Source of the DNA: Escherichia phage damhaus
DNA length: 51,154 nt
Sequence record: NC_049827.1
Reading direction: 5' to 3' (one strand)
The notes below the pieces were generated by a model, which was given only the letters and a program-made list of their open reading frames with translations, had not been told where the DNA came from and searched no databases. Positions 41,026 to 43,396 of the stretch are shown here, one piece after another; the stretch's first letter is position 1; each line of letters begins with the position of its first letter. The position numbers and the translations under genes were made by a program.

Positions 41026-41313
41026 ATGGCTAAAAGCTATCGTAAAATGTTGATTAACGCATTCGAAAAGGCAGCGCTTGAGCGTGGTTGGAATGACTCA
41101 TTTCACACAGCAAACTGTATCCGCCGTTACGGATTCAAGAATTGCCGCTCATGGGCGCGTGAAATGGCTTCATGGTATGATCTTGATGCGCATTACCTTG
41201 ATATGGATTGCGCCCTGGTTGAAATGATTGAACAGGCAGCATTAGAGGATCGACCATTAACGCAATCTGATTTTGACGATTTTGTGCGCGATGAAATTTA
41301 TTATATGAGCTAA
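41026..41313 (+). CDS. hypothetical protein
   Basis: 95-aa ORF with AAAGGAGG RBS. Confidence 0.55.
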   Translation: MAKSYRKMLINAFEKAALERGWNDSFHTANCIRRYGFKNCRSWAREMASWYDLDAHYLDMDCALVEMIEQAALEDRPLTQSDFDDFVRDEIYYMS

Positions 41314-41332
41314 TAGCACTTTTTGTTAAAAC
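41312..41332 (+). promoter_or_regulatory. conserved intergenic box copy
   Basis: AATAGCACTTTTTGTTAAAAC directly after the TAA stop. Confidence 0.65.
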
Positions 41333-41388
41333 TTCCGCGAGGGCATTTGTTAAAGTGTCCTCATTGAAGCGAAACAGAGGAAAGCGCA

Positions 41389-41613
41389 ATGAAAATTCGA
41401 ATTACCAATATTGAATCAACTAGCCCGTTTGATACTGACGAATTAAGCCTTGAGCAGTGTGGGATCGAGGTTGGCGATGTGTTCGAAGTTACCGGACAAT
41501 ATCGCGATGGGACTTTGAGCATTCAAGCGCCACGAGATACCGATGATGGTTGCATCAAGGCTGGCGATGAATTGAGCGTTAACGAAGGTGAATATGAGGT
41601 TGTAGAAGAATGA
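41389..41613 (+). CDS. small highly acidic protein
   Basis: 74 aa, D/E-rich; first of three coupled acidic ORFs. Confidence 0.55.
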   Translation: MKIRITNIESTSPFDTDELSLEQCGIEVGDVFEVTGQYRDGTLSIQAPRDTDDGCIKAGDELSVNEGEYEVVEE

Positions 41614-41873
41614 TCACGATTAACCTGTCAGAGCAGCAAGCGCGCATTATGTTAGCGGCCTTTGGCTGGCGAGATGATGACGGCATCCAGGCAACTGTTA
41701 AAATTCCTGAGCCAGTGGCGCGTGAAGTTTTCAGCCAGCTAGAACACGCATTTGATCCTGCTGGGACTGAGCAAGCGGAAACTGCCGCATGGTTCGGTGA
41801 GAACGGATACCGCGATCAGCAGATTGAAGAATGGAAGCGCAAAAACGAGACTGCGGAGGATGCAGGATTATGA
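41610..41873 (+). CDS. small acidic protein
   Basis: 87 aa; ATGA overlap with upstream gene. Confidence 0.55.
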   Translation: MITINLSEQQARIMLAAFGWRDDDGIQATVKIPEPVAREVFSQLEHAFDPAGTEQAETAAWFGENGYRDQQIEEWKRKNETAEDAGL

Positions 41874-42184
41874 TTTACATTCACTACTACCAGATCGGGA
41901 CAAACGAAAACAAGCAGGAGCGCAGAGCAATTTGTGACACGCTCGACGATGCGAAAGCACAGCAACGCGTTTTGGGTGGTGTAATTCAGGCTTTTGAGCC
42001 AGTGGAAGATATAGAGCACCGAGAGCATTTGAAAGAGATTGTTGTTGATGAAATTTCATCACTAATCGACGACATGACAAATCACGGGCCTGGTTCTCCG
42101 TGGGAAGAAGCCGGATCGACGGAGTGGGATTGCGCTAAAGTTGCAACGCTTAACAACTTTCGTGAGTTGCTCGACGATTTTTAA
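41870..42184 (+). CDS. small acidic protein
   Basis: Start at Met14 overlapping the upstream stop; 104 aa, D/E-rich. Confidence 0.5.
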   Translation: MIYIHYYQIGTNENKQERRAICDTLDDAKAQQRVLGGVIQAFEPVEDIEHREHLKEIVVDEISSLIDDMTNHGPGSPWEEAGSTEWDCAKVATLNNFRELLDDF

Positions 42185-42193
42185 TTAAAAATG

Positions 42194-42240
42194 AATGCCT
42201 CATACAGCGAACAGGACGCATTTTGACGAGGCATTTTTTA
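42194..42240 (+). terminator. rho-independent terminator
   Basis: AATGCCTC ... GAGGCATT stem with long loop followed by TTTTTT. Confidence 0.55.
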
Positions 42241-42254
42241 GGTAAGGTGATTCA

Positions 42255-42383
42255 ATGGATAACTACATAAAACCGTCGCAGTGGTGCGCACAGAAGCAAG
42301 AGGAAGCATTAGAACGCGGCGACACTGAAACGGCAATGCACTATTTCGAAATGTACAACTTGTGGAAGGGTAGAGGTCTGTAA
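42255..42383 (+). CDS. putative 42-aa protein
   Basis: Below track cutoff; AAGGTGA RBS; stop overlaps downstream start (TAATG). Confidence 0.4.
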   Translation: MDNYIKPSQWCAQKQEEALERGDTETAMHYFEMYNLWKGRGL

Positions 42384-42759: not shown

Positions 42760-42993
42760 ATGGAAAAGTACAAATTAACTTTCATGTTTAATAGTATGGT
42801 GATGAATCCATTAAATGGTTACGCTTGCAATAGCTTTTCTGTTACCGTGGATGAGGATGGAATTGATGATGATGGTAAATTTATTCAAATAGGTGATTAC
42901 CTTTATCCTATTCACAATATCAATTGCATCAAACGCGAGATTGTTAAAGATGAAGTACAAAGTAAAGCTGACGATCAGGCGAATGGGGCGTAA
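42760..42993 (+). CDS. hypothetical protein
   Basis: Start at Met27 of track ORF with AGGTGA RBS; 77 aa. Confidence 0.5.
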   Translation: MEKYKLTFMFNSMVMNPLNGYACNSFSVTVDEDGIDDDGKFIQIGDYLYPIHNINCIKREIVKDEVQSKADDQANGA

Positions 42994-43131
42994 TTGCTCG
43001 TCATGTAGGCAGGATTTTGAATGCGAGATTTCAGCGCAAAATCCTGTTGACGCGATTCAATGTGCTAAAGTTATATCAGGTGCAGATCCAGAGACGCATC
43101 AATTTTCAATCAATTTTGTAAGGGAAGTATC

Positions 43132-43365
43132 ATGTTGAACTTAATTTCTGCTTTTGTTATTGGTTTTGTTTTTGCTGTAATTATTCTGTTTGTCGCATCG
43201 GAAAAGATTTGCAAATTTCTTGCTAAGAACGGGAAGTTTGCAAGCGTGACATGGAATAACAAGATGCATCGATGGGATGTTCGCGGTCACTATCTGACGA
43301 TTGGTAGCAAAATCCATCAGCACCTGAAGAATCAAGAAGATGAAAAAGTAAAATACAAGTATTGA
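43132..43365 (+). CDS. small membrane protein
   Basis: 77 aa with N-terminal transmembrane helix; AGGGAAG RBS. Confidence 0.55.
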   Translation: MLNLISAFVIGFVFAVIILFVASEKICKFLAKNGKFASVTWNNKMHRWDVRGHYLTIGSKIHQHLKNQEDEKVKYKY

Positions 43366-43371
43366 CCAACT

Positions 43372-43396
43372 ACCCGCCAAATGGCGGGTTTTTTAT
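43372..43396 (+). terminator. rho-independent terminator
   Basis: CCCGCC-AAAT-GGCGGG hairpin followed by TTTTTTATT. Confidence 0.7.

What the first reader, a model, noticed from the sequence alone, without database searches (positions are those of the whole stretch)
41389..42240. Operon of three consecutive small, highly acidic proteins
ORFs of 74, 87 and 104 aa are translationally coupled by ATGA overlaps. They are preceded by a box copy and followed by a strong terminator. All are strongly D/E-rich. Small acidic early proteins are the classic profile of DNA-mimic anti-restriction and anti-defence proteins (Ocr- and ArdA-like) or inhibitors of host DNA-binding proteins. I find no recognisable motifs.
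Basis: inference. Interest (0 to 1): 0.5.

Follow-up and report, generated by a model that had tools for sequence, protein, structure and literature searches.

The report
Three small acidic T1-like phage genes
Three real, translationally coupled small acidic genes of a T1-like coliphage have no known function; they are not Ocr/ArdA-type anti-restriction proteins, and each is swapped as a separate cassette between near-identical phages.

Summary
ORFs of 74, 87 and 104 aa (41389-41613, 41610-41873, 41870-42184) overlap by ATGA and are acidic (pI 4.05, 4.38, 4.44). A copy of the family's 21-nt "box" precedes them and a hairpin plus T6 follows. The window is a complete Drexlerviridae (T1-like) genome.

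The Ocr/ArdA reading is not supported.
- No sequence or fold relation to any solved anti-restriction protein was found.
- A models as an SH3-like beta-barrel. B is only Pfam DUF7180. C is a small beta-beta-alpha-beta domain plus a helical hairpin.
- BASEL phage Bas10 carries an orthologous A-B-C trio and is still restricted about 10^4-fold by the type I system EcoKI.

What the comparisons add:
- The first slot holds either A or an unrelated, equally acidic roughly 70-aa protein (T1 gene 61).
- C's N-domain is fused to a MazZ-like dATP/dGTP pyrophosphohydrolase in other T1-like phages.
- In near-identical phages each gene is exchanged separately for a roughly 50%-identical allele, with breakpoints at gene borders. 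Selection is purifying within each allele type.

My best guess, at modest confidence, is dispensable protein-binding host-interaction or counter-defence proteins. Function remains untested and interest is low to moderate.

The parts
41312..41331 (+). Box: a copy of the Drexlerviridae 21-nt intergenic repeat (aaATAGCACnnnTTGnTAAAA). It begins one base before the end of the upstream gene's stop codon.
   Evidence: There are 12 copies in the window, all in the direction of the downstream genes. A copy lies about 77 nt upstream of the first gene of this unit in nearly all 46 related loci. The repeat was described in phage TLS with unknown function (PMC11447400).
41351..41356 (+). -10-like hexamer TAAAGT, exactly 19 nt after the box. 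Other copies and relatives carry TATAAT, CATAAT or TATAGT at the same position.
   Evidence: The spacing is fixed in 10 of the 12 window copies (the hexamer sits 1 nt off in two) and in relatives. A promoter function is inferred, not shown.
41332..41369 (+). Hairpin that encloses the -10-like hexamer in its loop.
   Evidence: Energy is -16.8 kcal/mol with z = -3.5. The stem covaries between phages: GAGGAC/GTCCTC, AAGGGC/GCCCTT, GATGGGGTA/TACCCCATC and AAGGCC/GGCCTT.
41377..41380 (+). Shine-Dalgarno core GAGG, 8 nt before the ATG of gene A.
   Evidence: Read directly from the sequence.
41389..41613 (+). Gene A: 74 aa, pI 4.05, net charge -14; predicted SH3-like beta-barrel; PHROG 5684.
41610..41873 (+). 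Gene B: 87 aa, pI 4.38; Pfam DUF7180, PHROG 11097. Its start overlaps the stop of A (ATGA).
   Evidence: Pfam E = 3e-30. The family is in 287 phage records, all roughly 50-kb Drexlerviridae. dN/dS is 0.11-0.15. No solved relative exists.
41870..42184 (+). Gene C: 104 aa, pI 4.44. It has an N-terminal beta-beta-alpha-beta domain (residues 1-42) and a two-helix hairpin; PHROG 11192. Its start overlaps the stop of B (ATGA).
   Evidence: The alignment confirms the start. AF2 gives pLDDT 88.5. The N-domain is shared with MazZ/DUF550 fusion proteins (hhalign probability 98%). The family is in 283 phage records.
42194..42239 (+). Terminator-like hairpin: 8-bp stem AATGCCTC/GAGGCATT, 26-nt loop, then T6.
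   Evidence: Energy is -13.6 kcal/mol with z = -1.8. The structure is conserved with covarying stems in relatives, but the T-run varies. It may be leaky; the next canonical terminator is at 43372-43389.

Best explanation
This is a conserved transcription unit in the non-structural (early/middle) arm of a T1-like phage. It sits between the dNMP-kinase region and the packaging genes. A copy of the family's 21-nt box with a -10-like hexamer lies upstream. Three genes follow that are translationally coupled by ATGA overlaps, and a conserved hairpin closes the unit.

The products are small, soluble, cytoplasmic proteins with no enzymatic domain.
- A is a very acidic SH3-like beta-barrel.
- B is a DUF7180 protein.
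- C is a roughly 42-residue beta-beta-alpha-beta adaptor-like domain followed by a helical hairpin.

Shown here:
- All three are real genes under purifying selection.
- They are restricted to Drexlerviridae.
- Each exists as several deeply diverged allele types that are exchanged one gene at a time between otherwise near-identical phages.
- The first slot can be filled by an unrelated but equally acidic protein.
- They are not relatives of Ocr or ArdA.
- An orthologous trio does not protect its phage from type I, II or III restriction.

Inferred mechanism: they act by binding proteins rather than by catalysis. They would be dispensable modulators of variable host factors. That means counter-defence proteins against systems other than classical RM, or host-takeover factors whose alleles are shuffled to follow or evade strain-specific host partners.
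For: - Gene reality and coupling.
- Conserved box-to-hairpin unit in 46 related loci, in Bas10 and in T1.
- Predicted folds with no catalytic domain.
- Family restricted to roughly 50-kb Drexlerviridae genomes.
- Non-homologous acidic replacement in slot 1. hhalign probability between A and A' is 0.2%. A' proteins have pI 4.05-4.35. T1 gene 61 has pI 4.05 and net charge -14.
- Cassette exchange. In phages with 97-100% identical flanks, A, B or C drops separately to 45-55% identity, and the breakpoints lie at gene borders. Within an allele type dN/dS is 0.05-0.31.
- Variable presence across about 841 T1-like records: A 454, A' 53, B 287, C 283. This is shell-gene behaviour.
- A precedent from the same phage family: small non-essential beta-barrel proteins interact with host immunity (Gp54 of Bas11 and CapRel, PMC11578894).
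Against: - There is no direct functional evidence of any kind. No homologue has been characterised.
- Mosaicism is not unique to the trio. The small genes at 42950-43365 are equally divergent from the closest relatives, so allele exchange may just be ordinary phage mosaicism in dispensable genes.
- The unit is present in most of the family at a fixed position next to nucleotide-metabolism genes. C's N-domain is fused to an NTP pyrophosphohydrolase elsewhere. Both points fit a housekeeping or nucleotide-metabolism accessory role just as well.
- No interaction among A, B and C, or with any host protein, was modelled.
- Expression timing is inferred from position only.
Confidence: 0.4

Rival explanations
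1. Ocr/ArdA-like DNA mimics that block type I restriction (and BREX) early in infection.
For: High negative charge: pI 4.05-4.44 and 19-26% D+E. Small size, non-structural position, and the first-slot protein is always very acidic.
Against: - No sequence relation to Ocr, ArdA or any solved protein.
- B's acidity is not conserved.
- Bas10 carries the trio, has 7 EcoKI sites, and plates at 1.6e-4 and 4e-5 on EcoKI. [quoted passage not shown] - BREX was not covered by these data.
Confidence: 0.07
2. Only the first-slot acidic protein (A, A' or T1 gp61) is a nucleic-acid mimic or decoy. It would inhibit a conserved host DNA enzyme that threatens linear concatemeric phage DNA, such as RecBCD (analogous to T7 gp5.9 or lambda Gam), or another DNA-binding defence. 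B and C would do something else.
For: Extreme acidity is the one property kept when the slot is refilled by an unrelated protein. This slot is the most widely conserved part of the unit across subfamilies, including T1 and the Klebsiella phages. From general knowledge: known small DNA mimics (gp5.9, Arn, AcrIIA4, AcrF2) have unrelated folds, so fold dissimilarity to Ocr does not exclude mimicry.
Against: Charge is the only evidence. No surface analysis or complex model could be run. An SH3-like barrel of 70 aa is not a known mimic scaffold. Allele shuffling within one host species argues against an invariant target such as RecBCD.
Confidence: 0.15
3. Accessory or regulatory subunits of phage nucleotide or DNA metabolism. 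C's N-domain would be a docking module that elsewhere carries a MazZ-like dATP/dGTP pyrophosphohydrolase. A would be its partner.
For: - The unit always follows the polynucleotide kinase and dNMP kinase genes.
- In T1-type and Klebsiella phages an A-family gene is followed directly by a fusion of C's N-domain with PF04447.
- BFVD lists a MazZ-domain fusion in Vibrio phage Vc1.
- The unit is present in most of the family.
Against: C in this phage lacks the enzyme domain entirely, and homology stops at residue 40. T1 itself has no C. Alleles reassort freely, which is unexpected for subunits of a conserved complex. The N-domain also occurs as a stand-alone 44-50-aa protein in unrelated phages.
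Confidence: 0.2
4. Transcription regulators of the early-to-late switch, for example B as a DNA-binding protein acting on the box promoters or on the adjacent late operon.
For: The unit is the last box-driven one before the packaging and structural genes. No phage regulator or RNA polymerase is known for T1-like phages, and the box function is an open question (PMC11447400). B has an invariant basic C-terminal motif, WKRK.
Against: No HTH or other DNA-binding domain was detected in any of 40 B homologues, even at E up to 10, or in the profile search against the PDB. B is absent from more than half of the family, which still carries boxes. All three proteins are acidic in this phage.
Confidence: 0.08

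Closest known systems
Ocr (T7 gp0.3) and ArdA DNA-mimic anti-restriction proteins
   Same: Small and very acidic (pI about 4), non-structural, encoded in the early-type arm of a virulent coliphage.
   Different: No sequence or fold similarity. An orthologous trio does not protect Bas10 from EcoKI.
Pfam DUF7180 (PF23805) / PHROG 11097
   Same: B is a full-length member: E = 3e-30, 105 bits against a cutoff of 27.
   Different: The family has no known function or structure, and no paper mentions it. Most members are much less acidic than this allele.
Gp54 of phage Bas11, a small non-essential beta-barrel protein of Drexlerviridae that triggers CapRel-SJ46 (PMC11578894)
   Same: Same phage family, similar size (66 aa), SH3-like small beta-barrel, dispensable, unknown primary function, suspected counter-defence role.
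   Different: It is a different gene. Its SECphi27 homologue is gp19, whereas the trio is gp43-45. No sequence match was found between A, or any small protein in 35.4-43.4 kb of the window, and the PDB, where the paper reports Gp54 is deposited as 9AXB.
Stand-alone SH3 protein (DUF7244) of the Drexlerviridae lysis module (phage KanT1, PMC13164509)
   Same: A stand-alone SH3-like domain encoded by T1-like phages as a shell gene.
   Different: It sits in a different locus next to the pinholin and belongs to a different family. A has no DUF7244 hit even at E up to 1. A is cytoplasmic, very acidic and far from the lysis genes.
MazZ-like dATP/dGTP pyrophosphohydrolase (PF04447, DUF550; annotated 'Eaa') of T1-type and Klebsiella T1-like phages, PHROG 6144
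   Same: It shares C's N-terminal beta-beta-alpha-beta domain (hhalign probability 98%, residues 2-40). It occupies the same position after an A-family gene and a box.
   Different: C has a two-helix hairpin in place of the pyrophosphohydrolase domain, so it has no enzymatic part.
Phage T1 genes 61 and 60
   Same: Same position (dNMP kinase, box, genes). Gene 61 is a 69-aa protein with pI 4.05. Gene 60 is a DUF7180/B-family protein coupled by an ATGA overlap.
   Different: Gene 61 belongs to the A' family, not the A family. T1 has no C. T1 gene 60 is near neutral (pI 6.1).

Membership tests
Ocr (T7 gp0.3) | Sequence homology to the Ocr family | tested here: not met
   No such hit in Pfam at E up to 1, NCBIfam, or PDB sequence and profile searches at E up to 10.
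Ocr (T7 gp0.3) | Elongated, mostly helical dimer that mimics bent B-form DNA | tested here: not met
Ocr (T7 gp0.3) | Dense negative surface charge (pI about 4) | tested here: met
   pI is 4.05, 4.38 and 4.44; net charge is -14, -9 and -13. This is conserved in the A and C families but not in B. Surface distribution was not computed.
Ocr (T7 gp0.3) | Protects the phage from type I restriction | tested here: not met
   Indirect test from published data. Bas10 encodes an orthologous A-B-C trio and has 7 EcoKI sites. Its EOP on EcoKI is 1.6e-4 and 4e-5. The alleles differ from those in the window.
ArdA | ArdA domain homology and an elongated three-domain acidic dimer of about 165 aa | tested here: not met
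   No Pfam or PDB hit. The proteins are 74-104 aa with unrelated predicted folds.
Pfam DUF7180 | Score above the Pfam gathering threshold over the full length | tested here: met
   B scores 105.1 bits against a cutoff of 27, covering profile positions 1-77 of 79. All 40 aligned homologues match.
SH3-like small beta-barrel fold | Five-strand barrel superposable on SH3 or KOW domains | tested here: inconclusive
acr-aca type anti-CRISPR operon | A small inhibitor gene followed by an HTH (Aca) repressor gene | tested here: not met
   No HTH family was recovered for B or its 40 homologues at E up to 10, apart from one isolated hit at E = 0.2. C has none either.
MazZ / dATP-dGTP pyrophosphohydrolase (PF04447) | All-alpha NTP pyrophosphohydrolase domain | tested here: not met
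   C has no PF04447 hit. Homology to the fusion proteins ends at residue 40.
Gp54(Bas11) CapRel-trigger family | Sequence homology and the same locus | tested here: not met
   The SECphi27 homologue of Gp54 is gp19, while the trio is gp43-45. There is no match between window proteins and the PDB, where the paper reports Gp54 is deposited as 9AXB.
Intrinsic terminator | GC-rich stem, short loop, then a U-run | tested here: inconclusive
   The 8-bp stem and T6 are present, but the loop is 26 nt and z is only -1.8. The consensus scan did not call it. The structure is conserved in relatives with variable T-runs.

The most novel reading that the evidence does not exclude
The first-slot proteins (A here, the unrelated A' in other phages, gene 61 in T1) are convergent new families of acidic decoy inhibitors. 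Their target would be a host DNA-binding enzyme or a defence system other than classical RM, for example RecBCD, BREX or another nucleic-acid sensor. B and C would be further counter-defence or trigger-masking cassettes. The gene-by-gene allele shuffling would then be the footprint of an arms race at a dedicated anti-defence locus common to Drexlerviridae.
Probability: 0.2. Interest if true: 0.6.

Novelty: new member of a known kind. Interest (0 to 1): 0.3.

Why it matters
T1-like phages are among the commonest coliphages and Klebsiella phages, and they are candidates for phage therapy. How they take over the host and deal with host immunity is unknown; the TLS authors list host shut-off and the 21-nt repeat as open questions (PMC11447400). 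If this unit is a host-interaction or counter-defence locus, it gives at least four uncharacterised protein families to test. It also gives natural near-isogenic phage pairs that differ only in one cassette, which makes the question experimentally cheap. If the proteins turn out to be housekeeping accessories, the finding is ordinary. The practical result here is negative: these genes should not be annotated as Ocr/ArdA-like anti-restriction proteins, nor as 'methyltransferase type 11', 'AbrB' or '26S protease subunit' as in some GenBank records.

Tried and rejected
- **Known families.** Pfam, PHROGs and NCBIfam scans gave only DUF7180 and function-less PHROGs.
- **Solved relatives.** PDB sequence and profile searches for A, B and C found nothing meaningful. 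The weak reDPBB and RAD51 hits for A and the Cmr1-MntA hit for B have E >= 0.09.
- **Exhaustive HMMER search with A.** It returned about ten roughly 70-aa clusters plus spurious TPR and PASTA-like repeat proteins. I considered a PASTA-like resemblance, but the AF2 model is all-beta and SH3-like.
- **Is A the CapRel trigger Gp54 of Bas11?** Rejected; it is a different locus with no homology.
- **Is A the lysis-module SH3 (DUF7244)?** Rejected.
- **Does B contain an excisionase-like HTH?** I suspected this by eye, but no profile supports it.
- **Are A and A' remote homologues?** hhalign probability is 0.2%.
- **Is C's helical half a degenerate MazZ domain?** No; homology stops at residue 40.
- **RNA families.** An Rfam scan of the whole window gave no hits.
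- **Literature.** Searches for DUF7180, Drexlerviridae early transcriptomes and small acidic T1-like proteins found nothing on these genes.

Full report
**Context.** The window is a complete genome of about 51 kb from a T1-like siphovirus (Drexlerviridae, Tempevirinae). The region around the finding is 93% identical to Escherichia phage JLBYU41, a Hanrivervirus, and about 80% identical to SECphi27 and tonnikala. The large terminase is 100% identical to that of Shigella phage ESh4. The finding lies in the rightward non-structural arm. It comes after the polynucleotide kinase/phosphatase and dNMP kinase genes and about 1.8 kb before the small terminase gene.

**Observation.** The three ORFs are as described: A 41389-41613 (74 aa), B 41610-41873 (87 aa) and C 41870-42184 (104 aa). 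The ATGA stop/start overlaps are at 41610 and 41870. The mechanical ORF for the third gene starts at an upstream ATG (41831, 117 aa). All 57 aligned homologues begin MI(Y/F)(I/V)H, so 41870 is the true start.

The proteins are acidic. pI is 4.05, 4.38 and 4.44; net charge is -14, -9 and -13; D+E is 25.7%, 19.5% and 21.2%. They are three of the five most acidic of 89 crude ORFs in the genome. Such adjacency has a chance probability of about 0.0075.

They are real genes. Each has tens to hundreds of homologues with residue-level conservation. dN/dS against relatives of the same allele type is 0.05-0.31.

**Flanking signals.** The box is AATAGCACTTTTTGTTAAAA at 41312-41331, one of 12 copies in the window. 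Eight lie on the + strand between 24.5 and 41.3 kb and four on the - strand between 28.8 and 34.8 kb. All point in the direction of the downstream genes, and none lies in the structural region.

This is the 21-nt repeat aaATAGCACnnnTTGnTAAAA reported for phage TLS. There it has 18 intergenic copies about 76 nt upstream of start codons, and its function is unknown (PMC11447400). In this window 10 of the 12 copies are followed after exactly 19 nt by a -10-like hexamer, and in two the hexamer sits 1 nt off. The hexamer is TATAAT, CATAAT or TATAGT in most copies and the weaker TAAAGT here, at 41351-41356. A conserved CATCGAAACGA-like leader and a Shine-Dalgarno sequence follow.

Ten of the 12 copies also carry a stable hairpin, either inside the 19-nt spacer or enclosing the hexamer. 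Here it has -16.8 kcal/mol and z = -3.5. The stems covary between phages. A box copy sits about 77 nt upstream of the first gene of this unit in nearly all 46 related loci, in Bas10 and in T1. The box most likely marks a promoter module, but that is an inference.

The downstream 'strong terminator' is an 8-bp stem (42194-42201 / 42228-42235) with a 26-nt loop, followed by T6. Its energy is -13.6 kcal/mol and z = -1.8, and the consensus scan did not call it. Relatives keep a hairpin there with covarying stems, such as GCGCCTC/GAGGCGC, but often with an interrupted T-run. It may be leaky. The next canonical terminator is at 43372-43389, just before the small terminase gene. The transcript may therefore extend over the five following small genes.

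**What the proteins are.**
- *Sequence searches.* None of the three has a characterised relative. Pfam gives only DUF7180 for B (E = 3e-30). PHROGs gives families 5684, 11097 and 11192, all of unknown function. NCBIfam gives nothing. PDB sequence and profile searches found no significant match.
- *C's N-domain elsewhere.* A BFVD search and profile comparison show that it is a mobile module. It occurs alone as 44-50-aa proteins in several unrelated phages. It is fused to a MazZ-like dATP/dGTP pyrophosphohydrolase (PF04447, DUF550, 'Eaa') in T1-type and Klebsiella T1-like phages. Homology ends at residue 40.
No HTH or other domain is detectable in any of 40 homologues.
- *GenBank names.* Names given to these genes in some records ('methyltransferase type 11', 'AbrB family regulator', '26S protease regulatory subunit 7') have no support.

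**Distribution and anatomy across the family.** All homologues lie on roughly 50-kb Drexlerviridae genomes or contigs. About 841 phage records have a related large terminase. Of these, A is in 454, B in 287 and C in 283.

The unit varies in composition:
- A-B-C, as here and in SECphi27 gp43-45 and Bas10 genes 83-85.
- A'-B-C, where A' (PHROG 6031, 53 records) is a 67-73-aa protein with pI 4.05-4.35. It shows no detectable homology to A (hhalign probability 0.2%).
- A followed by the N-domain::MazZ fusion, without B.
- A'-B without C, in T1 itself. T1 gene 61 is 69 aa with pI 4.05 and net charge -14. T1 gene 60 belongs to the B family.

The B/C junction is an ATGA overlap in almost every locus. 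Acidity is conserved in the first slot (A median pI 4.34, A' 4.17) and in C (4.67). It is not conserved in B (median 5.0, range up to 9.6).

**Cassette exchange.** Some phages have flanking genes 97-100% identical to the window. In these, the three genes are replaced one at a time by alleles of only 45-55% identity.
- L026 keeps A at 99% but has B at 52% and C at 55%.
- L003 keeps C at 99% but has B at 49% and a different first gene.
- L004 to L006 keep C at 88-95% with A at 45% and B at about 50%.
- The window's B allele recurs at 87-89% in SECphi27-like phages whose flanks are only 52-58% identical in the adjacent small genes.

A 50-nt identity scan places the breakpoints at the promoter/A, A/B, B/C and C/hairpin borders. 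Deeply diverged allele classes, purifying selection within each class and free reassortment are what one expects of dispensable genes under diversifying selection at population level. One caveat applies: the small genes at 42950-43365 show the same behaviour. The pattern is therefore not unique to the trio and may partly reflect ordinary mosaicism.

[quoted passage not shown] Its supplementary tables give 7 EcoKI and 5 EcoCFT_I sites for Bas10 (IsaakIselin, MZ501077). They give EOPs on EcoKI of 1.6e-4 and 4.1e-5. Bas10 is also restricted by EcoCFT_I (5e-3), EcoRI, EcoRV, EcoCFT_II and, in one replicate, EcoP1.

I fetched the Bas10 locus. It has the box and a complete A-B-C trio, with HMM scores of 104-172 bits (E about 1e-34 to 1e-55), pI 4.3-4.7 and ATGA overlaps. 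The RM-resistant relatives Bas04 and Bas05 have zero or one type I site, which accounts for their escape from type I restriction. An orthologous trio expressed from its native context therefore does not give Ocr-like protection. The alleles differ from those in the window, and BREX and other systems were not tested, so this refutes only the RM part.

**Other leads checked.** Gp54 of Bas11 is a 66-aa SH3-like beta-barrel that triggers CapRel-SJ46. It looked like a candidate for A, but it is a different gene: SECphi27 gp19 against gp43-45 for the trio, with no sequence match. It still shows that small dispensable beta-barrel proteins of this phage family engage host immunity. The stand-alone SH3 of the lysis module (DUF7244, PMC13164509) is also a different gene.

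**Conclusion.** The proteins are catalogued but uncharacterised Drexlerviridae families. They are not members of the Ocr or ArdA families, and an orthologous trio does not protect its phage from classical restriction.

My preferred explanation has a confidence of about 0.4. The proteins are non-enzymatic, protein-binding accessory factors that act on variable host components, either as counter-defence against non-RM systems or in host takeover. Their alleles would be shuffled as cassettes.

The rivals are:
- A decoy or mimic role confined to the first-slot acidic protein (0.15).
- An accessory role in nucleotide or DNA metabolism, suggested by the MazZ fusion and the neighbouring kinases (0.2).
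- Transcription regulation (0.08).
- The original Ocr/ArdA idea (0.07).

Nothing here is very surprising to a phage specialist. The useful outputs are the negative result on anti-restriction, the anatomy of the unit, and natural near-isogenic allele pairs that make the function cheap to test.

Noticed in passing
window, 12 sites: + strand 24529, 25549, 36132, 36596, 37601, 38610, 39968, 41312; - strand 34811, 33935, 31657, 28814: The 21-nt repeat known from TLS, whose function is an open question (PMC11447400), has extra structure here. In 10 of 12 copies a -10-like hexamer lies exactly 19 nt after the repeat (1 nt off in two), which puts TTGTTA 22 nt upstream, a non-canonical spacing for sigma-70. 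A conserved CATCGAAACGA leader follows. In 10 of 12 copies there is a stable hairpin, either within the spacer or around the hexamer, and its stem covaries between copies and phages. Read on the opposite strand, hairpin plus TTTTAACAAAAA looks like an intrinsic terminator against antisense transcription.
   Followed up: partly
window 41870-41995 (C residues 1-42); L040:3989-4561; BFVD hits: C's N-terminal beta-beta-alpha-beta domain (invariant VLGG, QQ) is a mobile phage module. It occurs alone as 44-50-aa proteins in rV5-like and other phages (PHROG 3955). It is fused to a MazZ-like dATP/dGTP pyrophosphohydrolase in T1-type, Klebsiella and Vibrio T1-like phages.
   Followed up: partly
L017:3490-3696, L010:3544-3768 and others; T1 NC_005833 6607-6816 (gene 61): In many relatives the first slot of the unit holds an unrelated 67-73-aa protein (PHROG 6031) that is just as acidic (pI 4.05-4.35) and also ends in ...VEE(E). 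This looks like analogous replacement that conserves charge rather than sequence.
   Followed up: yes
window 42255-42383: A 42-aa protein (PHROG 1312, ...PSQWCAxKQxEALERGD...HYFxMxxLWxxRGL) lies directly after the trio. Its mean identity to the window across 35 related loci is 81%, higher than the large terminase at 77%. That is unusually strong conservation for so small an ORF of unknown function.
   Followed up: no
window 42950-43365: The two small genes of 62 and 77 aa just upstream of the small terminase gene are only 37-67% identical even in phages whose flanks are 97-100% identical. This is a second hypervariable spot beside the trio.
   Followed up: no
GenBank records OK272479, OK272483, NC_047938, MN783016 and others: Homologues of A are annotated as 'methyltransferase type 11' or 'AbrB family regulator', and homologues of B as '26S protease regulatory subunit 7'. 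These are 70-87-aa proteins with no such Pfam match, so the names are annotation artefacts that propagate.
   Followed up: yes
phage collection records MG0656xx ('Campylobacter phage A118, A120, A121, E6' and others): About 20 records labelled Campylobacter jejuni phages are 97-100% identical to this E. coli/Shigella T1-like phage in the trio region. The host label or the sample is probably wrong; T1-like contamination is the likely cause.
   Followed up: no
window 43372-43389: A canonical strong intrinsic terminator (ACCCGCC-AAAT-GGCGGGT followed by TTTTTATT) lies just upstream of the small terminase start (43416). It probably ends the small-gene transcription unit(s) before the packaging genes.
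   Followed up: no
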